From Halioxenophilus sp. WMMB6 (GTDB lineage: Bacteria; Pseudomonadota; Gammaproteobacteria; Pseudomonadales; Cellvibrionaceae): a DNA stretch of 64,000 nucleotides. Position 1 is the stretch's first letter. Each line of letters begins with the position of its first letter. Position numbers and translations under genes: made by a program. The stretch lies in NCBI RefSeq assembly GCF_033283405.1, contig NZ_JAWMQR010000007.1, positions 148,807 through 212,806 on the forward strand, in the 5' to 3' direction. The notes under the pieces are model-generated. The model saw nothing but the letters and a program-made list of their open reading frames with translations. It was not told the origin of the DNA and searched no databases. Of this stretch, positions 28,127 through 34,678 are shown in pieces.

Positions 28127-30562
28127 CTAATTACCCGCCAGCGAATATTCCTGCTGGAGCTGGTTGTTGTGTGTCAGCAACCACTCAATAAATTCTGCGT
28201 TAGGCATGGGCTTGGCGTAAAGGTAACCCTGGCCGAGGTCGCAGTTGAGCCTTTTCAAGATTTCGGCTTCGGCCGGGTATTCAATACCCTCCGCCGCCAC
28301 CAGTTTATTGAGCTCGTGGCTCAGTTCTATAGTCGCCTTAACAATGCTGTGGTTGCGCTGATTGCTATCGATGCCACGCACAAAACTTTGATCAACCTTC
28401 AGTACATCAATGGGAAACTTGGCGAGGTAGGCCAGTGATGAGTAGCCAGTGCCAAAGTCGTCCAGGGCAATGGCAAAGCCAAAATTGACCAGCCGTTGCA
28501 GGATAGTCTGGCTGATTTCCGGGTCGGTCATCAGTGCCGATTCGGTAATTTCCAGGTGCACTCGTTCGGGGTCAACCTGGTAGTTGCGAGTGCGCTCGAT
28601 AAGGTAATCGGGTAGCTGTTGATCAAACAGATTGCGGGCAGAGAGGTTGATCGACATTTTCAGATCCAGACCCTGTTGCTGCCAGGATTGCAGATCTTTG
28701 AGCGAGAGATCGATAACCTGCCGGGTGAGCGGTTGAATGTGGTCGGTCGCCTCCAGGTAGGGCATAAAGATCGCCGCGCTTAAAAAGCCCTTGGTGGGGT
28801 GGTGCCAACGTACCAGGGATTCAGCAGCGGTACAGCGGCCACTGAGCATATCGATGAGCGGCTGGTGGTACATCTCAAACTGCCCCTGCTCCAATGCCTC
28901 TGCCATACCGGCCAGAAGCTCTACCCGGGTTCTCACTTCGTTGTCGGTATCTTTGTTGTAAACGGCGATGGTTTCGTGGCCCTTTTTCGCCTGATACATG
29001 GCGATGTCGGCACAGCGCAGCAATTCGTGGCTATCCAACTCATTGGCGGCGGCCTCAACCACGCCGATAGAGGCGGCGGCCTTCAGGCTGATATCTTTAA
29101 TAACGAAGCGCTCTTCAAACAGGCTGGCTAACAGCTTGGCAAACGTCAGGCCGCCATCGAGATGCGTCTGCTGACTAACGACCACCACAAATTCATCGCC
29201 GCTTAAGCGAAAGGCCCGGGTGTCGCTGGATGGTAGGGCTTGATAGAGGCGATTGGCCAGCTGTTTAAGCAGCTCGTCGCCGATGATGTGGCCGAAGGTA
29301 TCGTTAACCTCTTTAAAGTGGTTCATGTCCAACAGCATGACGATAACCTTGGCGGCCTTCAGGTTGGCGACATAATCATGATAGGCGCGGCGGTTACCCA
29401 GCCCGGTTAGGCCATCGTATTTGGCCAGAAAGGCGAGCTCTGCCACATGCTTGGCATTGGCCACACTTAGCCCAACCGCGTGGCTAATGGTTTCAAACAG
29501 CGCCATCTCCTGATTGCTAATGGCCCGATGTGTGGCAGAGACCAGGACAATGGCACCACTGGCTTCGCCATTGCTCACCAGCGGAATGGCAACGGCAGTC
29601 TTGGGCAGATAGTTAAAAAATTCAATCAGGTGGCTGGCATCCACTTGCGCACCGTTCAGTTCGTGCTGAATCACTATCTCCTGCCGGGTTACCGACTGCC
29701 CGGAGATACTCTTTTCCATACTCACCAGTGGTGCATTGGCCAGTTCGCTGGCGGCGGCGTTGCGGCCAAAGGCACCGACGATGGTCAGGTTTTTGCCGAC
29801 GTTGTCGAGCTGCAGCATCAAGCCGTCGTCCCAGCCGTGCTTGGCCACAAAGGGCGGTAGTATGCGCTCACCCAGGTCGCGCACACTGTTGATATCCTGC
29901 AGTTGGGTGGTGATGCCGTGGGAGAGGGAGAGGATTGCCAGGTGATCATTGAGCTCTTGCTGCGACCGCAAAAAACAGATCAGCAGCAGCAGCCCCATCG
30001 AGAGGGTGGTGGCGGTGGCGAGTGTCAGGTGGCCGTACTCGTGCATTAAAGGCTGGGTGGCCGGAACCGACAGGCCAACGATAGTCATGCCCAGCATCAT
30101 AAAGCCGCGCGCCAGGAATACGCTGGCGGTGATTCTTTGCAGCACGCTTTTGGACCATAACGACCAGGCCACATGGGTCATGGCCAAGGTGGTGACCAGA
30201 GTGACGTAGAGGTGGATGATGGCAATGGAGCCGATGGCCACCCAAAGCATAAACAGCGCCATTACTAAGATCGCAAAAAGGCGTGGCCCCTTGCTGGCAT
30301 GGCGGTTTAGCCGAAACTCAAAGGCCCCCCTGGAGAGGGTGTAGACCAACGCCGAAAAGATAACGCCAGACAGCAGGGTGATGGGAAGGGAACCGTTTAG
30401 GCGCGGCGTGGCCAGCAGCTCGTCGAGCACAATAGTGAACGGGGTCAAGGCAAAGGCGGCGCCCCACCACAGAAGGTAGCGCCGCTCACGGTCGGCCCAC
30501 CACATAATAAGCAGTACAATAGCGGAGATCAGGTGGGTGAAGGGGATAAAGAAAATATACAT
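28127..30562 (-). CDS. membrane sensor with GAF-like, GGDEF and EAL domains (c-di-GMP cyclase/phosphodiesterase)
   Basis: N-terminal about 8 TM segments. GGDEF domain (RLSGDEFVVV) and EAL domain (EAL...DDFGTGYSSL) motifs present. Confidence 0.85.
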   Translation of the reverse strand: MYIFFIPFTHLISAIVLLIMWWADRERRYLLWWGAAFALTPFTIVLDELLATPRLNGSLPITLLSGVIFSALVYTLSRGAFEFRLNRHASKGPRLFAILVMALFMLWVAIGSIAIIHLYVTLVTTLAMTHVAWSLWSKSVLQRITASVFLARGFMMLGMTIVGLSVPATQPLMHEYGHLTLATATTLSMGLLLLICFLRSQQELNDHLAILSLSHGITTQLQDINSVRDLGERILPPFVAKHGWDDGLMLQLDNVGKNLTIVGAFGRNAAASELANAPLVSMEKSISGQSVTRQEIVIQHELNGAQVDASHLIEFFNYLPKTAVAIPLVSNGEASGAIVLVSATHRAISNQEMALFETISHAVGLSVANAKHVAELAFLAKYDGLTGLGNRRAYHDYVANLKAAKVIVMLLDMNHFKEVNDTFGHIIGDELLKQLANRLYQALPSSDTRAFRLSGDEFVVVVSQQTHLDGGLTFAKLLASLFEERFVIKDISLKAAASIGVVEAAANELDSHELLRCADIAMYQAKKGHETIAVYNKDTDNEVRTRVELLAGMAEALEQGQFEMYHQPLIDMLSGRCTAAESLVRWHHPTKGFLSAAIFMPYLEATDHIQPLTRQVIDLSLKDLQSWQQQGLDLKMSINLSARNLFDQQLPDYLIERTRNYQVDPERVHLEITESALMTDPEISQTILQRLVNFGFAIALDDFGTGYSSLAYLAKFPIDVLKVDQSFVRGIDSNQRNHSIVKATIELSHELNKLVAAEGIEYPAEAEILKRLNCDLGQGYLYAKPMPNAEFIEWLLTHNNQLQQEYSLAGN

Positions 30563-30859
30563 TTTTATAATCGTTATTTTTCGAACATCACAGCATAACC
30601 AGAATAATTTAAAGCTACCACCCGAGGCAAAACAAAATATCGCTATTGTGGAAAACTATAGCAGCGAATTTGACGCCACTAATGCAATTCCTCAAGTAAA
30701 GTTGACCGGCTGGCGGAAAATTTTTGAATGCGTATTAAGTAATGAACATTCAAGGAGTGCGCACTGATGCCATTTTTATGGTGGCCTTAATCCGTTAATT
30801 GCCAGCCTGTAGTTGGATAAAAAGTGCTTAACTGTTGAATTGATTGCCGGTGGCCTGCG

Positions 30860-30901
30860 CTGATGGCTGATGGCTGATGGCTGATGGCTGATGGCTGATG
30901 G
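30860..30901. repeat. heptanucleotide microsatellite (CTGATGG)x6
   Basis: Six perfect tandem copies seen directly. Confidence 0.95.
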
Positions 30902-30989
30902 TTATTCCGAATTTTTACAAATCTTGATGCAAGCGTTGCGGGAAGAGTTCTGTGAGCTGGCAGCGGGTGCCGGTTCTACCGGTACCTAA

Positions 30990-31320
30990 TTAAAAACCTT
31001 AACCACTTCAATAAGACCGACAATGTGCCGGTTAAACTCGGCCAGCTGTTGGGCGGGAATCCAATATTCCCGATGGTCGCTGCCGCCGGCAGATTACTCG
31101 GTAAAGTTTGCGAGATAGTCGGCGTCCACCGCAAAGCGGGTTACAAAGCTGCAACCACTTTCGCGTACATTCCAGTCACGCGCGATTTTAATAGCCTAGG
31201 AAATGGTGGCAACCGGGTGGAAAAAGGGCTGTTGGGGAAGCCGCGGCGGCCAATGTCGCCAGCCACAGGCTGTTACCAGGGCGAGTTCCGGTGGGCCGAT
31301 ATGGAGTGACGGTTCGTACC
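30990..31320 (-). pseudogene. decayed gene remnant readable through two in-frame stops (TAG, TAA)
   Basis: Minus-strand frame reads ...HIGPPELALVTACGWRHWPPRLPQQPFFHPVATIS*AIKIARDWNVRESGCSFVTRFAVDADYLANFTE*SAGGSDHREYWIPAQQLAEFNRHIVGLIEVVKVFN*. Protein-like composition across the stops. No intact ORF on either strand. Confidence 0.25.
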
Positions 31321-31392
31321 ATAAGAGCGCCTGCTTGGCTTATTCTGGTTGAGTCTATTTGGGTTGTTTTAGTAAGTGGCAAAACCACCACA

Positions 31393-31421
31393 AAAAACCC
31401 GTCCACCAACGTGGACGGGAA
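31393..31421 (-). terminator. rho-independent terminator of SPFH gene (cccgtccac-gttg-gtggacggg + T6 on minus strand)
   Basis: 9-bp GC-rich stem and U-run immediately after the stop at 31424. Confidence 0.65.
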
Positions 31422-31423
31422 AG

Positions 31424-32578
31424 CTATTGCGCGCTTGTGGCTGGTGCTAGTTTCACCAGGCCGTGTAGCACACTGTCGAGGCCACCATAAACCGAAATTT
31501 TGTCGATCTTGGTGGTGATCCTTTCCAGCGCTTCCAGCTCTTTCAAACGCAGCAACACCGGGTTGTTCTCCATCACTTTGGCGGTGTTGTGCAGCGAGCG
31601 CATCGCCTGGGTCTCTTCATGGCGTTTAATCAGGTTGGCTTCAGCCTCCTTTTGCGCCTCCACTACCTGGTTTAAGATCTGCTTCATGTCGCCAGGCAAA
31701 ATAATATCTTTCACCCCAACACTTAACAGGTTGATACCGTAATCGGTCACCCGGTTGCGCACGCCCTCGGCAATCACCGCGTTTAACAGATCCTTGTCGA
31801 CTAACAGTTCATCCAGGTTTTTAGTACCTACCGCTTCCCGTAAGCGCAGTTGCAGCTCCAAGTACAAGAAGTTGAGGTAGTCCTTCAGCTGCAGTGCCAC
31901 CGATTTTGCATCGACAATTTTAAAGCTGGCGGTCAGGTTGATACGCAGGCTCACGCGATCCTTGGTGAGAATCTCCTGCCCGCTAACGTCCAGAGTTTGC
32001 AGGCGCAAATCGACCAGCTTAACGCTGATTGAGCGGTTGTATAACCAAAATCCGTAACGGCCAGTGGTCAACATCTTCTCCAGCTTGCCGTTAACAAACA
32101 GCATGCCCACCTGCTCATCGGGTACCTCGCTGTAACTGATGGCCTGTGCCAGGGTGCGGTTGTTAGCCAGGGTGGCTCCCCGGCCCAACAGGCCAATCAC
32201 GTCGTCGCCGATTTGATAATCGCTGGTGATATCCACCACACTGACGCTAACCTGCTCACCGCCGCGCCAGGTGGCCAACAGGCCCCCGGGTGGCAGAATA
32301 TCCGCCAGCTTGCCATCGCGATAGACGAGGCCGACTTCGCGGTCGGTCAGCTGCACCGCATCCACCACCCCGTCAAACAGCGGCTGGTACTGGCGCAATA
32401 AAAATTTCAGTCGCGGGTGGTTAAATTCCACGGCGGTAATATCGTAGTGCTCCACCCGCAAATCCTGCCCTAATGCCCACAGTCGTTGTCGACCGGGCAT
32501 TAAAATGGTTGCCAGGCGGTTGCGTCGGTAAACCAGGGCCCGCTCGTTATCGGCAACGTCGATCATTTTCCATAACAT
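31424..32578 (-). CDS. SPFH/band-7 (stomatin-like) domain protein with two extra N-terminal partial SPFH-like modules, no obvious TM anchor
   Basis: GGAGG RBS. C-terminal canonical SPFH region (KLVDLRLQTLDV...VIAEGVRNRVTDYGINLLSVGVKDIILP...EAQKEAEANL). Three repeats of an (E/R)xVGLVYRxGKLxxIL-like module. Confidence 0.8.
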   Translation of the reverse strand: MLWKMIDVADNERALVYRRNRLATILMPGRQRLWALGQDLRVEHYDITAVEFNHPRLKFLLRQYQPLFDGVVDAVQLTDREVGLVYRDGKLADILPPGGLLATWRGGEQVSVSVVDITSDYQIGDDVIGLLGRGATLANNRTLAQAISYSEVPDEQVGMLFVNGKLEKMLTTGRYGFWLYNRSISVKLVDLRLQTLDVSGQEILTKDRVSLRINLTASFKIVDAKSVALQLKDYLNFLYLELQLRLREAVGTKNLDELLVDKDLLNAVIAEGVRNRVTDYGINLLSVGVKDIILPGDMKQILNQVVEAQKEAEANLIKRHEETQAMRSLHNTAKVMENNPVLLRLKELEALERITTKIDKISVYGGLDSVLHGLVKLAPATSAQ

Positions 32579-32880
32579 AATCGTTCCTCCATTAATGATC
32601 GTTTCTCTATTATTAATTTAAAGCGAGGCTCACTGAGCCGGGTCGCGGCTAACGGTTTGGCTTGTTCAGGCGAAGACTCAGGTGTTTGCCGGCAGCCATA
32701 GGCGATGACAAAAGCCACCCGACGGTTGAAGACAAAACCAGAAGCCTGCGCGTGCACAAGCCACCCACCATGAGCGGTTACCCGGCTCGGGTTGGTTTGA
32801 ACCGCATTACCTGAACTGCCGGCAAAGACGGAATCTGGCCAACCGTGAACCTCTAGTTGATTTATAAACAAGCACCATAA

Positions 32881-32940
32881 GCTTGTGAGGACTCGAACCT
32901 CTGGGTCTCTCGACCTCTACCATTGAGCCGTTTACACGGC
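32881..32940 (-). other. tRNA-like remnant (D-arm-like GCTCAATGGTAGAG plus T-arm-like GAGGTTCGAGTCCTC, no anticodon arm)
   Basis: Motifs seen directly. Only about 13 nt between the D- and T-arm motifs. Followed by a CAAGC-TTATGGT-GCTTG hairpin. Confidence 0.4.
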
Positions 32941-32942
32941 GG

Positions 32943-33016
32943 AGTTTTTGGCGGGATTCGAACCCGCTACCGATAGATTATTAATCTACTGCTCTACCCG
33001 AATGAGCTACAAAAAC
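32943..33016 (-). tRNA. non-canonical tRNA-like gene: full 74-nt cloverleaf, anticodon loop TTAATAA (anticodon AAT), acceptor stem GUUUUUG/CAAAAAC, no encoded CCA
   Basis: Manual fold: 7-bp acceptor, D-arm GCTC-ATTCGGGTA-GAGC, anticodon stem GTAGA/TCTAT (part of the perfect palindrome TAGATTAATAATCTA), variable loop CGGTA, T-arm GCGGG-TTCGAAT-CCCGC. Confidence 0.45.
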
Positions 33017-33145
33017 GGTGGTTTATGTCCACCCGGCAATTGGTACACACAACGGTAGTACCGCCTGCGCCGGACTGGCCTTTGGAACCAGTGCCGCTAA
33101 TTACCGGGCGAGAGATAAACTCTGTGTGGCCAATGCCTAAAAAAA

Positions 33146-33703
33146 TTAGGCTTGAGGCCAAATCCGGTTTCCGGAAAATTGCTTCTCCAGATACTCCATT
33201 TGATCCGCCAGTACTTGGTGTTGGGCCAAAAACAGCCCTTCACTCCGGTTGGGGCAGAAAGGCACCGCCAGTAACACCATGCCCGCCTGTTCCGGTGTAC
33301 GGTCGGCTTTAAAGTGGTTGCAGCGCTTACAGGCGGCCACCACATTTTGCCAACGGTTTTGGCCGCCCTGTGCGCGCGGCACAATGTGGTCGCAGGTGAG
33401 CTCACGGGCTAAAAAGCGCTGACCACAATACATACAACGGTAGTTATCCCGGCGAAACAGCAGCCGGTTGCACAAAGGTGGCGCCGGCTGTGCTTGCTGC
33501 TCCCGGCCGCGAGTGGCGATAATGGCGCGCAGAGCAATGTGGGAGCGCTGGCCGCTTGCCCGATTTACACCGCCGGTCAGGTTGAAAATTAACTCGCCCA
33601 GCTCCCACTGCACCTGATTTTTTACATAGAGCAGCGCTGCCTCCGAGCGGGATAGCCAGGCGGTGGCGGTGCCGGTGCTATCCAGGCGCAAGATGCTAAC
33701 CAT
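33146..33703 (-). CDS. HNH endonuclease family protein
   Basis: AGGAGA RBS. HNH motif CMYCGQRF...CDHIVPRAQGGQNRWQNVVAACKRCNHFKADR seen directly. Confidence 0.8.
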   Translation of the reverse strand: MVSILRLDSTGTATAWLSRSEAALLYVKNQVQWELGELIFNLTGGVNRASGQRSHIALRAIIATRGREQQAQPAPPLCNRLLFRRDNYRCMYCGQRFLARELTCDHIVPRAQGGQNRWQNVVAACKRCNHFKADRTPEQAGMVLLAVPFCPNRSEGLFLAQHQVLADQMEYLEKQFSGNRIWPQA

Positions 33704-33721
33704 GGTCTTCTCCTGGTATGG

Positions 33722-34012
33722 TTACCGATAAAAATTTGCGCCATCGATGGATCGATAGCCGCAACTGTTTAAAAGCGTGCCGAGCTGTGCCCGCCGGCTG
33801 CGATCAGATTCGGTCAGCACCACTCTGTTCGGTAGCCGTGATCGGCTTTGCGCCCAGCGTAAAACCACACAGCTGTTGTCCCGTCCGTGTAGTGAAAAGT
33901 CGACCGCCAACACCGAGATGACCAATTCGTTCAGCGCCTTTTTAGCGCTGCGGCTGTCTCTGCAGTAGAGGTCTGCACTGAACACAGCGCGTTTACCCAA
34001 AGCGACTCGCAT
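33722..34012 (-). CDS. hypothetical protein (96 aa), co-oriented 18 nt upstream of HNH gene
   Basis: Very strong SD (AAGGAGGAG) before ATG 34012. Lies directly downstream of the tRNA-Lys gene. No recognisable domain. Confidence 0.45.
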   Translation of the reverse strand: MRVALGKRAVFSADLYCRDSRSAKKALNELVISVLAVDFSLHGRDNSCVVLRWAQSRSRLPNRVVLTESDRSRRAQLGTLLNSCGYRSIDGANFYR

Positions 34013-34051
34013 TGCTTCTCCTCCTTGATGTAAAAATTGCCAATAGTTAAT

Positions 34052-34126
34052 TGGTTGGAGGTATGGGAGTCGAACCCATCTGTGCCGGAGTAAAAGTCCG
34101 GTGCTCTGCCGCTAAGCCAACCCCCA
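34052..34126 (-). tRNA. tRNA-Lys (anticodon UUU), CCA encoded
   Basis: Manual cloverleaf: acceptor TGGGGGT/ACCTCCA, anticodon arm CCGGA-CTTTTAC-TCCGG, T-arm ATGGG-TTCGACT-CCCAT, discriminator A then CCA. Confidence 0.8.
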
Positions 34127-34168
34127 ATAAAAATCCTTGGTCAATTTGTCTGCTTTACTGCCGAATAA

Positions 34169-34243
34169 TGGCAGCAGCCTCAGGGCTCGAACCTGAAATA
34201 CGTGAGTCAAAGTCACGTGTGTTACCCATTACACCAGGCTGCT
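34169..34243 (-). tRNA. tRNA-Gln (anticodon UUG), CCA encoded
   Basis: Manual cloverleaf: acceptor AGCAGCC/GGCTGCT, D-arm GTGT-AATGGGTA-ACAC, anticodon arm CGTGA-CTTTGAC-TCACG, T-arm TCAGG-TTCGAGC-CCTGA, discriminator G then CCA. Confidence 0.8.
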
Positions 34244-34279
34244 GGAGTACTAAATTTAATGGTGATCAATATCATTGGC

Positions 34280-34366
34280 TGGCAGCGGTGAGATTCGAAC
34301 TGACACGGCGCCGCAAGTCACCGCACGGATTAGTAATCCGCTGCCGTACCGTTCAGCCATGCTGCC
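34280..34366 (-). tRNA. type II (long variable arm) tRNA-like gene with anticodon loop TTACTAA (anticodon ACT; Ser-like), mismatches in acceptor (A7:C66) and T-stem (C:C); possible pseudo-tRNA
   Basis: Manual fold: GGCAGCA-TG-GCTG-AACGGTA-CGGC-A-GCGGA-TTACTAA-TCCGT, about 20-nt variable arm, GTCAG-TTCGAAT-CTCAC, CGCTGCC-A. No CCA. Confidence 0.4.
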
Positions 34367-34410
34367 AATAATCTTCCCGTTTGAGTTTTCTGGCTCGCTT
34401 GGCCATAAAA

Positions 34411-34439
34411 AAACCCCGGGGTTGCCCACCGGGGTTTTT
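34411..34439. terminator. bidirectional terminator-like hairpin (A7-ccccgg-ggttgccca-ccgggg-T5)
   Basis: Seen directly, upstream of the minus-strand tRNA array. A second 7-bp hairpin ccggaagg...ccttccg follows. Confidence 0.5.
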
Positions 34440-34639
34440 GCGAACCGGAAGGCATCAGCCTTCCGCGGAATGCTGATATTAAAACAAAATAAGCGCCTGG
34501 CTTAGGCCGAAGCTCTGGTCGTCACACAGGTGGCCACTGGTCGCTATTAACAGTGTTTTGGCAGCGTGGACGGCAATCGCTTGCAGGTGACCTATTGGTT
34601 GTTGGTTCATCGCTATTCTTAATTGGGTAGTCATTAATT

Positions 34640-34678
34640 TGTTTTCTGTTTTCTGTTTTCTGTTTTCTGTTTTCTGTC
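34640..34678. repeat. heptanucleotide microsatellite (TGTTTTC)x5.5
   Basis: Seen directly. Followed by hairpin ctcgct-tgcgatagc-agcgag plus T5 (plus-strand terminator-like). Confidence 0.95.

What the first reader, a model, noticed from the sequence alone, without database searches (positions are those of the whole stretch)
33146..34012. HNH endonuclease plus strong-SD 96-aa ORF embedded inside the tRNA array
ORF96 (AAGGAGGAG SD) and the HNH nuclease (AGGAGA SD) are separated by 18 nt. They sit between tRNA-Lys and the AAT tRNA-like gene, on the same strand as all of them. The HNH protein (185 aa) has an uncharacterised roughly 90-aa N-terminal domain ahead of the CDH...N...CN core.
This resembles a two-gene nuclease module (effector plus partner/immunity) of the kind found in defence islands, or a homing nuclease at a tRNA locus.
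Basis: partly seen in the sequence, partly recalled or inferred. Interest (0 to 1): 0.6.

Follow-up and report, generated by a model that had tools for sequence, protein, structure and literature searches.

The report
Nuclease gene pair inside shrunken tRNA array
The two genes are the conserved protein core of a horizontally spreading tRNA gene array that has shrunk to four tRNA genes in this marine bacterium, which makes this a variant of a known but functionally unsolved association between tRNA arrays and HNH nucleases.

Summary
On the minus strand lie tRNA-Ser(ACT), tRNA-Gln, tRNA-Lys, ORF96, an 18-nt spacer, HNH185, tRNA(AAT) and a Band_7 gene. The genome is Halioxenophilus sp. WMMB6.

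- **ORF96** is a divergent, basic member of the cREC receiver-like family (PF20274). It lacks the family's catalytic aspartates.
- **HNH185** has a Cas9/IscB-type HNH core. Its N-terminal domain is PLMP/IF3-N-like by fold only, which resembles the "IshB" architecture.
- **Family links.** HNH185 is homologous to Anabaena All8564, the published HNH gene next to cyanobacterial long tRNA arrays, and to a jumbo-phage gene inside a tRNA cluster.
- **Conserved layout.** The closest relatives (57-68% identity) mostly lie in arrays of up to 28 tRNAs, ordered array, cREC-like, tRNA-Arg, HNH, tRNA(CAT), Band_7. The flanking genes differ between genomes.
- **Wider family.** About 125 more distant homologs stand alone, with no tRNAs and no partner.

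There is no support for a defence-island or toxin-immunity reading. My preferred mechanism is an array-resident DNA endonuclease that drives gain, loss and transfer of tRNA genes, with ORF96 as a non-catalytic partner. This is inferred, not shown. The main rival is a role in the tRNA-damage response. I class it as a new variant of a known kind, of moderate interest.

The parts
34406..34441 (-). Terminator-like GC hairpin plus T-run just upstream of the first tRNA. It marks the likely upstream limit of the array transcription unit.
   Evidence: Sequence read (CAAAAACCCCGGTGGGCAACCCCGGGGTTTTTTTAT). It falls within a sub-threshold Rfam hairpin match at 34405-34457.
34276..34367 (-). tRNA-Ser with the unusual anticodon ACT. 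It is the weakest tRNA of the set.
   Evidence: ARAGORN. Rfam tRNA, 40.4 bits. Only 68-71% identical to the array Ser(GCT) genes of L087 and L089.
34169..34243 (-). tRNA-Gln(TTG), array-type.
   Evidence: ARAGORN. Rfam 60.7 bits. 89% identical to the tRNA-Gln of the 20-tRNA array in L085.
34052..34126 (-). tRNA-Lys(TTT), array-type.
   Evidence: ARAGORN. Rfam 58.3 bits. 91% identical to the Zooshikella tRNA-Lys that precedes the same gene pair, and 80% identical to the tRNA-Lys of the Anabaena L-array.
34018..34026 (-). Shine-Dalgarno AAGGAGGAG of ORF96, 5 nt before the ATG.
   Evidence: Read from the sequence.
33722..34012 (-). ORF96: a divergent, basic (pI 10.5) cREC-like receiver-fold protein that lacks the catalytic aspartates.
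   Evidence: ORF. phmmer found 26 relatives, and 16 of the 24 aligned hit PF20274. The AF2 model has pLDDT 96. Foldseek finds a receiver fold, TMq 0.66 to PhoP REC. Active-site columns and charge were tabulated.
33709..33714 (-). Shine-Dalgarno AGGAGA of the HNH gene, 5 nt before the ATG. The spacer from the ORF96 stop codon is 18 nt.
   Evidence: Read from the sequence.
33146..33703 (-). HNH185. Residues 1-66 form a beta-beta-alpha-beta-beta domain that is PLMP/IF3-N-like by fold. Residues 80-142 form a Cas9/IscB-type HNH core. Residues 143-185 are a conserved C-terminal helical extension.
32941..33016 (-). tRNA with anticodon AAT. It is the ortholog of the tRNA(CAT) that follows the HNH gene in related arrays, and it has no encoded CCA.
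   Evidence: ARAGORN. Rfam 67.2 bits. 76-82% identical to the tRNA at the same position in L085 (CAT), L087 (CAT) and L086 (AAG), with the shared acceptor stem GTTTTTG.
32861..32937 (-). Possible decayed tRNA gene directly downstream of tRNA(AAT). Low confidence.
   Evidence: Called only by ARAGORN at the relaxed -ps70 setting. A T-arm-like GGTTCGAGTCCTC is visible. There was no Rfam match at E<=1.
31424..32578 (-). SPFH/Band_7 protein (384 aa), the conserved downstream member of the module.
   Evidence: Pfam Band_7, E=1.7e-31. Homologs 64-70% identical sit at the same position after the HNH and a tRNA in L085, L086, L087 and L169, with a fragment in L093.
31398..31419 (-). Strong terminator-like hairpin plus T-run directly after the Band_7 stop codon. 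It marks the likely downstream end of the unit.
   Evidence: Terminator scan: 9-bp stem with 7 GC pairs, followed by TTTTTT.

Best explanation
**What it is (well supported).** ORF96 and HNH185 are the conserved protein-coding core of a horizontally acquired tRNA gene array, of the kind called a 'long array' or tRNA array unit. In Halioxenophilus sp. WMMB6 the array has decayed to four tRNA genes, two of which carry anticodons that bacteria do not normally use (AAT and ACT).

The ancestral layout, seen in relatives, is: up to about 28 tRNAs, tRNA-His, cREC-like gene, tRNA-Arg(TCT), HNH gene, tRNA(CAT), Band_7 gene. Everything is on one strand and is presumably transcribed together and cut apart by tRNA processing.

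- HNH185 is an intact metal-dependent nuclease. It has a Cas9/IscB-type HNH core with a four-cysteine zinc site, behind an N-terminal domain whose fold resembles the RNA-hairpin-binding PLMP/IF3-N domain.
- ORF96 is a basic receiver-fold protein of the cREC family that has lost the catalytic aspartates. It is therefore probably a binding or regulatory partner rather than an enzyme.

**How it most likely works (inferred, not shown).** The HNH protein nicks or cuts DNA in or near tRNA genes. The resulting recombination lets the array expand, contract, exchange tRNA genes and move between genomes, while the nuclease core stays constant. This is analogous to the GIY-YIG enzyme SegB, which amplifies phage tRNA genes. 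ORF96 would restrain or target the nuclease.
For: **Identity**
- The organism and both genes are confirmed.
- ORF96 relatives hit PF20274 cREC_REC in 16 of 24 cases, and the model has a receiver fold.
- The HNH core is closest to Cas9d/IscB-type HNH domains.
- The catalytic and zinc-binding residues are invariant across the family.

**Array membership**
- L087 has 28 tRNAs, L085 has 20, L096 has 19 and L169 has 12, all with the same cREC-like/HNH(/Band_7) order.
- The window's tRNA-Gln, tRNA-Lys and tRNA(AAT) are 82-91% identical to array tRNAs at matching positions.
- The flanking genes differ in every genome, which indicates a mobile unit.
- The array-linked HNHs form one clade in a neighbour-joining tree.
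- dN/dS is 0.05-0.19 for all three proteins, though dS is near saturation.

**Known kind**
- hhalign gives 99.7% probability to Anabaena All8564, which sits directly upstream of the 24-tRNA array of pCC7120delta. That gene was published as the HNH conserved with L-arrays and co-induced with them (PMC8421152).
- HNH genes, some annotated as 'Cas9', are the commonest CDS in mycobacterial arrays (PMC5966550).
- A full-length homolog lies inside the tRNA cluster of jumbo phage SCTP-2.

**Mechanism**
- Every solved structural relative is a DNA nuclease or nickase, for example Cas9/IscB HNH domains and the Gme HNH nickase 4H9D.
- Array size varies from 2 to 28 tRNAs around a constant nuclease core.
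- SegB gives an experimental precedent for a nuclease embedded in a tRNA cluster driving amplification of tRNA genes (PMC13096335).
Against: - No cleavage site, empty site or amplification junction was identified, so the DNA target is pure inference.
- Strong conservation, purifying selection and co-diversification with the array are atypical of selfish homing endonucleases.
- About 125 family members are stand-alone chromosomal genes with no tRNAs. Some are in conserved synteny with an Xni-like exonuclease gene. The family therefore has some function that does not need an array.
- The partner belongs to a family predicted to act on RNA 2',3'-cyclic phosphate ends (PMC7824862, PMC9503650).
- Some arrays carry an RNA ligase (L002) or RlaP genes (L087).
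- In Anabaena the HNH is co-induced with the array and with rtcB under translational stress (PMC8421152).

The last three points fit an RNA-centred role at least as well as a DNA-centred one.
Confidence: 0.4

Rival explanations
1. **RNA-centred module.** The array supplies spare tRNAs against tRNA-cleaving toxins. The cREC-like/HNH pair acts on RNA, recognising damaged tRNA ends (ORF96) and trimming or clearing cleaved or defective tRNAs (HNH) so that ligases such as Rnl or RtcB, together with RlaP, can restore the pool.
For: - ORF96 belongs to the cREC family, which is predicted to process 2',3'-cyclic phosphates and is found with RNA ligases (PMC7824862, PMC9503650).
- An RNA ligase (PF09414) directly follows the HNH in Zooshikella, and two RlaP genes follow Band_7 in L087.
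- RlaP acts on cleaved tRNAs in vitro (PMC12776372).
- All8564 is co-induced with the tRNA operon and rtcB under translational stress (PMC8421152).
- The N-terminal domain is PLMP/IF3-N-like by fold, and PLMP binds RNA hairpins (PMC9581776, PMC9640706).
- An HNH nuclease (PtuB) is reported to degrade tRNA-Tyr (PMC12673091).
- A tRNA lies 19-36 nt upstream of the HNH start codon in five loci.
Against: - ORF96 and its HNH-linked relatives lack the two catalytic aspartates.
- RNA ligase and RlaP each occur in only one of about 12 array loci.
- All close structural relatives of the HNH core cut DNA.
- Most family members have no tRNA or RNA-repair neighbours.
Confidence: 0.27
2. **Toxin-immunity or anti-phage defence pair**. 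The HNH is a toxic effector held in check by ORF96.
For: - The two genes are tightly coupled, with strong ribosome-binding sites.
- The pairing is conserved within the clade.
- The HNH domain resembles PtuB of Septu at the domain level (E=9.5e-10).
- ORF96 appears to be non-catalytic.
Against: - There is no full-length match to any PADLOC model, and no hit at all for ORF96.
- No defence genes lie nearby.
- About 125 homologs, and clade members L001 and L088, lack any partner.
- In several arrays a tRNA gene separates the two ORFs.
Confidence: 0.07
3. **RNA-guided or RNA-scaffolded IshB-like nuclease.** The PLMP-like domain binds a neighbouring tRNA or tRNA-like transcript, which serves as cofactor or guide for the HNH cut. 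This would be a minimal relative of the OMEGA systems.
For: - The architecture matches the published description of IshB, about 180 aa with PLMP plus HNH (PMC10734217, PMC11610941).
- In IsrB the PLMP domain binds the RNA hairpin immediately upstream of its own ORF (PMC9581776). Here a tRNA sits 19-36 nt upstream of the ORF in five loci.
Against: - Sequence-level PLMP tests are not significant.
- No conserved upstream RNA is shared across the family.
- In the window itself no tRNA precedes the HNH ORF.
- No transposase or omega-RNA-like element is present.
Confidence: 0.06
4. **Chance adjacency.** HNH185 is an ordinary housekeeping nuclease of Gammaproteobacteria, and tRNA genes merely happen to lie next to it.
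For: Most family members are stand-alone chromosomal genes.
Against: - In this clade the tRNAs, the cREC-like gene and Band_7 travel with the HNH into different genomic flanks.
- Related HNHs sit in tRNA arrays in cyanobacterial plasmids and in a jumbo phage.
Confidence: 0.05

Closest known systems
[quoted passage not shown] Examples are the Anabaena sp. PCC 7120 trn operon with all8564 (PMC8421152), mycobacterial arrays (PMC5966550) and Acidithiobacillus arrays (PMC4758250).
   Same: - Same-strand, densely packed supernumerary tRNA genes that spread horizontally, with an HNH gene linked or embedded.
- HNH185 is homologous to All8564 over residues 2-151 (hhalign probability 99.7%).
- The window's tRNA-Lys is 80% identical to the Anabaena array tRNA-Lys.
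   Different: - Only 4 tRNAs remain here, whereas the published definition needs at least 20.
- Two of the remaining tRNAs carry A34 anticodons.
- The HNH is embedded rather than upstream of the array.
- It is paired with a cREC-like gene and followed by Band_7. I did not find either partner described for L-arrays in the papers I read.
IshB (PLMP + HNH, about 180 aa), the minimal relative of IscB and Cas9 named by Altae-Tran et al. 2021. I know it only from secondary descriptions (PMC10734217, PMC11610941, PMC13284715).
   Same: - Size of 185 aa and no RuvC domain.
- The HNH core is closest to IscB/Cas9d HNH domains.
   Different: - No significant sequence similarity to authentic PLMP domains.
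- No IS200/IS605 transposase and no omega-RNA nearby.
- No IshB reference sequence was available for direct comparison.
- This protein has an extra conserved C-terminal helical extension.
cREC (PF20274), the cyclic-phosphate-processing receiver domain of phage and bacterial RNA-repair and NAD/ADP-ribose systems (PMC7824862, PMC9503650).
   Same: - Receiver fold.
- Homology by transitivity: 16 of 24 relatives hit PF20274.
- Stand-alone size of about 100 aa.
- Occasional linkage to an RNA ligase or RlaP.
   Different: - ORF96 itself does not reach PF20274.
- The acidic pair after strand 1 and the DHD motif after strand 3 are lost in the HNH-linked subfamily.
- Its constant partner is an HNH nuclease inside tRNA arrays. 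I did not find this context described for cREC in the papers I read.
SegB, the free-standing GIY-YIG homing endonuclease of T-even phage tRNA clusters (PMC13096335).
   Same: It is a nuclease gene embedded among tRNA genes. It provides the experimentally shown model for nuclease-driven amplification and co-conversion of neighbouring tRNA genes.
   Different: - An unrelated fold (GIY-YIG rather than HNH).
- It is a phage gene rather than chromosomal.
- No activity has been shown for HNH185.
- HNH185 is much more conserved and has many stand-alone orthologs.

Membership tests
tRNA array unit / L-array | At least 20 tRNA genes at a density of at least 2 per kb (definition in PMC4758250). | tested here: not met
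   The window has 4 tRNA genes in 1.43 kb (32941-34367), so the density is met but the number is not. Homologous loci do meet it: L087 has 28 and L085 has 20. The window is a remnant, not a full array.
tRNA array unit / L-array | Genes in one orientation and close enough to be co-transcribed. | tested here: met
   All four tRNAs, ORF96, the HNH gene and Band_7 are on the minus strand. Terminator-like hairpins occur only at the two ends.
tRNA array unit / L-array | Horizontally acquired, with a patchy distribution. | tested here: met
   The same tRNA/cREC-like/HNH/Band_7 order lies between different flanking genes in the window, L002, L085, L086 and L087. The window's tRNA-Lys is 80% identical to that of a cyanobacterial plasmid array. 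No empty site was examined.
tRNA array unit / L-array | A linked HNH endonuclease gene. This is frequent rather than obligatory (PMC8421152, PMC5966550). | tested here: met
   HNH185 is homologous to All8564, which lies next to the Anabaena array.
HNH (beta-beta-alpha-metal) nucleases | Catalytic His, Asn/Asn metal ligands and a CxxC...CxxC zinc site. | tested here: met
   Pfam HNH_5 (1.6e-16) and HNH (2.6e-14). D105, H106, N120, N129, C90, C93, C125 and C128 are invariant in A1 and A4.
IshB (OMEGA-related PLMP-HNH protein) | About 180 aa with an HNH of the IscB/Cas9 type and no RuvC domain. | tested here: met
   The protein is 185 aa. The best NCBIfam hits are Cas9d and IscB, over the HNH region only. 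The best PDB sequence and fold hits are TbaIscB and Cas9d. No RuvC match was found.
IshB (OMEGA-related PLMP-HNH protein) | An N-terminal PLMP domain. | tested here: inconclusive
   **Sequence and profile tests are negative or marginal.**
- Profile A3 against PDB and Pfam: nothing.
- All8564 N-terminus against PDB: nothing.
- hhalign against the authentic OgeuIscB and DtIsrB PLMP domains: P about 0.05-0.1, although in the expected register.

**Fold evidence is supportive.**
- The predicted beta-beta-alpha-beta-beta topology fits the published PLMP description (PMC9581776).
- The tool does not show the aligned ranges, so assigning these matches to the N-terminal domain is my inference.
IshB (OMEGA-related PLMP-HNH protein) | Association with an IS200/IS605 transposon and/or an omega-RNA. 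| tested here: not met
   The neighbours are tRNAs, the cREC-like gene and Band_7. Rfam finds only tRNAs in the window. No upstream region is conserved across the family.
cREC (PF20274) | Sequence match to the family model. | tested here: inconclusive
   ORF96 itself has no Pfam hit at E<=1. Sixteen of its 24 phmmer relatives hit PF20274, with a best E-value of 7.7e-17.
cREC (PF20274) | Receiver (CheY-like) fold. | tested here: met
   The AF2 model has pLDDT 96.3. The top 50 Foldseek PDB hits are receiver domains, with TMq up to 0.68.
cREC (PF20274) | The two catalytic aspartates shared with receiver domains (PMC9503650). | tested here: not met
   Positions 6-7 are G-K in ORF96, against D-D in canonical members. 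The DHDLG motif is DFSLHG in ORF96, and the Asp at position 38 is kept in only 12 of 24 sequences.
Toxin-immunity or known anti-phage defence system | Full-length match to a known defence protein and an obligatory partner. | tested here: not met
   PADLOC gives only HNH-domain-level hits (PtuB, Cas9) and nothing for ORF96. Most homologs have no partner.
Free-standing homing endonuclease | Sporadic presence and absence among close relatives, and cleavage of the endonuclease-free allele. | not testable with these tools
   Within the array clade the HNH is a constant component and is under purifying selection, which is not typical of homing endonucleases. Cleavage specificity needs an experiment.

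The most novel reading that the evidence does not exclude
PLMP-like/HNH proteins of this family are the 'IshB' class, and tRNA arrays are a natural home for them. Under this reading the N-terminal domain binds a tRNA or tRNA-like transcript encoded right next to the gene. That RNA, with the inactivated cREC partner sensing RNA ends, directs or licenses the HNH cut. This would be a minimal RNA-dependent nuclease that predates IscB and Cas9, and a direct functional link between tRNA arrays and the origin of RNA-guided nucleases.
Probability: 0.06. Interest if true: 0.9.

Novelty: new variant of a known kind. Interest (0 to 1): 0.5.

Why it matters
tRNA arrays are widespread and horizontally mobile. 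They are increasingly seen as countermeasures to tRNA-cleaving toxins and defence systems. The HNH gene that so often travels with them has never been characterised.

This locus and its relatives add three things:
- In marine Gammaproteobacteria the nuclease comes as a fixed three-part core (inactive cREC-like protein, HNH, Band_7), around which the tRNA content expands and shrinks.
- The nuclease has the domain plan described for IshB, the smallest and least understood relative of IscB and Cas9.
- The decayed array here keeps the proteins intact while its tRNAs drift to abnormal anticodons. This suggests that the proteins are selected in their own right.

Together these make a small, tractable system (two proteins of 96 and 185 aa, plus tRNAs). 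It could be used to test what array-linked HNH nucleases do and whether IshB-like proteins use RNA.

Tried and rejected
- **Word-indexed search with ORF96** found only the protein itself. The exhaustive phmmer search was needed.
- **Sequence tests of PLMP membership** were not significant: profile A3 against PDB and Pfam, the All8564 N-terminus against PDB, and hhalign against the validated OgeuIscB and published DtIsrB PLMP sequences.
- **Pfam on All8564 and the two phage homologs** gave no N-terminal family.
- **The search for related loci with the ORF96 alignment** failed because no stretch was conserved enough.
It could not be used to find an empty site or the closest genomes.
- **A search for a conserved upstream RNA** in 145 loci found only clusters of closely related genomes.
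- **Pfam on the neighbours of the phage SCTP-2 homolog** found one further weak HNH-domain ORF (L089 7820-8509) but no cREC, RNA-ligase or RlaP neighbour.
- **The repeat search across the island** found no flanking direct repeats that would suggest an att site.
- **The promoter scan** found nothing convincing upstream of the first tRNA.
- **Altae-Tran et al. 2021** could not be read. IshB is therefore known to me only from secondary descriptions.
- **Rejected readings:** defence island, toxin-immunity pair, and chance adjacency.
Full report
**1. What is in the sequence**

The finding's coordinates match two minus-strand ORFs exactly: ORF96 (33722-34012) and a 185-aa HNH protein (33146-33703). 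Reading the sequence confirms three details:
- AAGGAGGAG lies 5 nt before the ORF96 ATG.
- AGGAGA lies 5 nt before the HNH ATG.
- The two genes are separated by an 18-nt spacer.

ARAGORN and Rfam agree on four tRNA genes on the same strand. Ser(ACT), Gln(TTG) and Lys(TTT) lie upstream of ORF96. A tRNA with anticodon AAT lies 130 nt downstream of the HNH gene, and it is the best-scoring tRNA in the window at 67 bits. A Band_7/SPFH gene (31424-32578) follows on the same strand.

Terminator-like hairpins bracket the unit at about 34406-34441 and 31398-31419. Both proteins are 100% identical to annotated proteins of Halioxenophilus sp. WMMB6.

**2. ORF96 is a degenerate cREC domain**

ORF96 has no Pfam hit of its own. 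An exhaustive phmmer search of 1.84 billion representatives found only 26 relatives, nearly all about 97 aa long. Sixteen of the 24 that I aligned hit PF20274, cREC_REC, with a best E-value of 7.7e-17.

The AlphaFold model is very confident (pLDDT 96.3). Its best PDB matches are all receiver domains, with TMq up to 0.68.

cREC was defined by the Aravind group as a receiver-like domain that keeps the two catalytic aspartates. It is predicted to open 2',3'-cyclic phosphates on RNA or ADP-ribose derivatives, and it is found next to RNA ligases (PMC7824862, PMC9503650). ORF96 and its close relatives have lost these residues:
- The D-D after strand 1 is G-K.
- DHDLG is DFSLHG.
- The NPxG motif is replaced.

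The proteins are strongly basic, with pI 9-10.5. I therefore read ORF96 as a non-catalytic partner, probably one that binds nucleic acid.

**3. The HNH protein**

The family is conserved over its whole length. That includes an N-terminal domain (residues 1-66, predicted beta-beta-alpha-beta-beta) and a C-terminal helical extension.

Published descriptions of 'IshB' (about 180 aa, PLMP plus HNH, no RuvC) fit this plan (PMC10734217, PMC11610941). I tested the PLMP assignment in two ways.
- **Sequence.** Profile and pairwise tests against authentic PLMP sequences are not significant, although hhalign chooses the expected register. The reference sequences were OgeuIscB, which I validated against 7UTN and 7XHT, and DtIsrB, taken from PMC9581776. 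The tests are.

The tool does not report aligned ranges, so attributing these hits to the N-terminal domain is my inference. PLMP membership is therefore plausible but unproven.

**4. Genomic context of relatives**

The wider family is large. There were 773 hits and more than 600 genome loci, across Gamma- and Betaproteobacteria. It is mostly stand-alone.
- Of 80 distant genome loci, only one has a tRNA within 6 kb, and none has an ORF96 homolog.
- In 14 of them the gene is followed by an Xni-like exonuclease gene.

The closest relatives tell a different story.
- In Zooshikella the order is tRNA-Leu, tRNA-Lys(TTT), ORF98 (50% identical to ORF96), HNH, RNA ligase.
- Three metagenomic or MAG loci carry 28, 20 and 2 tRNAs in the order array, cREC-like, (tRNA-Arg TCT), HNH, tRNA, Band_7. 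One of them adds two RlaP genes.

I then surveyed 172 loci that carry a family member.

| HNH identity to the window | Loci | tRNAs within 5 kb | cREC-like | Band_7 |
|---|---|---|---|---|
| 57% or more | 13 | 9 | 8 | 6 |
| 50-57% | 46 | 5 | 1 | 0 |
| 40-50% | 108 | 6 | 0 | 1 |

In that survey, every locus with the cREC-like gene also had tRNAs. Divergent cREC-like proteins (P0128, P0131) are also followed by an HNH. tRNAs were found in the P0131 loci (L175, L176) but not in L172, the 1-kb contig that carries P0128. Canonical cREC proteins (P0137, P0143) are not followed by an HNH.

In a neighbour-joining tree the array-linked HNHs form one contiguous clade, with a few members that have lost the array. 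The flanking genes differ in every genome, so the unit moves as a block. dN/dS among array loci is 0.05-0.19 for all three proteins, with dS near saturation.

**5. The tRNAs are array tRNAs, and the array here is decayed**
- The window's tRNA-Gln is 89% identical to the tRNA-Gln of the L085 array.
- Its tRNA-Lys is 91% identical to the Zooshikella copy and 80% identical to the tRNA-Lys of the Anabaena plasmid array.
- The tRNA after the HNH gene is orthologous to the tRNA at the same position in L085 and L087 (anticodon CAT) and L086 (AAG). They share the acceptor stem GTTTTTG and have no encoded CCA. Here its anticodon is AAT.

From general knowledge, A34 anticodons in bacteria are essentially confined to tRNA-Arg(ACG). 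Together with the weak tRNA-Ser(ACT) and a possible tRNA relic at 32861-32937, this looks like an array in decay whose protein genes remain intact.

**6. Relation to what is known**

Long tRNA arrays are a described class of horizontally transferred elements (PMC4758250, PMC8421152). An HNH 'homing endonuclease' gene is their most common protein-coding companion in cyanobacteria and mycobacteria, where some copies are even annotated as Cas9 (PMC5966550).
- HNH185 is homologous to the Anabaena gene all8564 (hhalign probability 99.7%). That gene lies directly upstream of the 24 tRNA genes ARAGORN finds on pCC7120delta. It is co-induced with the array and with rtcB under translational stress (PMC8421152).
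- A full-length homolog (41% identity) sits within the tRNA cluster of the jumbo phage SCTP-2.

So 'an HNH gene inside a tRNA array' is a known kind of thing whose function is still open. The apparently new points are the fixed cREC-like partner, the Band_7 companion, the IshB-like architecture and the extreme reduction of this array. I did not find these described in the papers I read.

**7. Mechanism**

Nothing here shows an activity, so I commit to a ranking.

*Preferred (0.40): a DNA endonuclease or nickase resident in the array.* Its breaks promote recombination that expands, contracts, reshuffles and transfers tRNA genes.
- All structurally close HNH domains cut DNA.
- Array size varies from 2 to 28 tRNAs around an invariant core.
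- The unrelated GIY-YIG enzyme SegB has been shown to amplify phage tRNA genes in just this way (PMC13096335).

*Main rival (0.27): an RNA-directed role in the tRNA-damage response.*
- It is supported by the cREC ancestry of the partner.
- The RNA ligase and RlaP genes in two arrays point the same way.
- So does the stress co-regulation seen in Anabaena, and the RNA-binding character of PLMP.
- There is also a precedent for an HNH nuclease that degrades tRNA: PtuB (PMC12673091).

Against the preferred model stand the strong conservation, the purifying selection and the many stand-alone orthologs, none of which is typical of homing endonucleases. Against the rival stand the loss of the cREC catalytic residues and the rarity of the ligase and RlaP genes.

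*Less likely readings.*
- The toxin-immunity or defence reading (0.07) lacks any positive evidence.
- Chance adjacency (0.05) is contradicted by the conserved order within differing flanks.
- An RNA-guided or RNA-scaffolded IshB-like mechanism (0.06) is the most novel reading not excluded.

**8. Verdict**

It is partly wrong: this is not a defence island or an immunity pair. It is a new variant of a known kind, of moderate interest, and it makes a compact system for testing what array-linked, IshB-like HNH nucleases do.

Noticed in passing
window 32941-33016 and 34276-34367; L086 5693-5766; L085 2850-2924: A34 anticodons recur in this array family: AAT and ACT in the window, AAG in L086 and ACA in L085. 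The tRNA just after the HNH gene is orthologous in four loci, yet its anticodon is CAT, CAT, AAG or AAT. It has no encoded CCA, unlike the other array tRNAs.
   Followed up: partly
window 32861-32937 (-): Possible decayed tRNA gene 3 nt downstream of tRNA(AAT). It is seen only with ARAGORN at a relaxed threshold. A T-arm-like GGTTCGAGTCCTC is present, but there is no Rfam match.
   Followed up: partly
window 30859-30901 and 34640-34677: Two perfect heptamer microsatellites lie just outside the two ends of the tRNA/HNH/Band_7 unit: (GCTGATG)x6 and (TGTTTTC)x5.4. Their significance is unknown.
   Followed up: no
window 30563-31397: About 835 nt between the Band_7 terminator and the GGDEF-EAL gene has no convincing ORF and no Rfam match. 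GC content dips to 0.37 at 30550-30850.
   Followed up: no
L022 and 13 other distant loci (for example L022 6694-7584): In stand-alone members of the HNH family (for example L022, a Woeseiaceae MAG), the gene is followed about 100 nt downstream on the same strand by an Xni-like 5'-3' exonuclease ORF. In 16-17 loci pntA/pntB-like genes lie about 1.3-1.5 kb upstream. This hints at a DNA-metabolism role for the non-array members.
   Followed up: partly
L002 5650-6696; L087 7356-9025: RNA-repair genes ride on some arrays. An RNA ligase (PF09414 with the PHA02142 OB domain) directly follows the HNH in Zooshikella, and two RlaP nucleotidyltransferase genes follow Band_7 in L087.
   Followed up: partly
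L085, L087, L092, L096, L103 (tRNA ends 19-36 nt before the HNH start codon): A tRNA gene lies immediately upstream of the HNH ORF in several arrays: tRNA-Arg(TCT) in L085, L087, L092 and L096, and tRNA-Leu(TAG) in L103. This is reminiscent of the omega-RNA terminal hairpin that abuts the IscB and IsrB ORFs. The window has lost this tRNA.
   Followed up: partly
[not shown]
   Followed up: no
L085 4603-4894: The cREC-like gene appears frameshifted in L085: a 55-aa called ORF, with the tblastn match continuing in another frame. The contig name gives a coverage of only 2.53x, so this may be an assembly error rather than a pseudogene.
   Followed up: no
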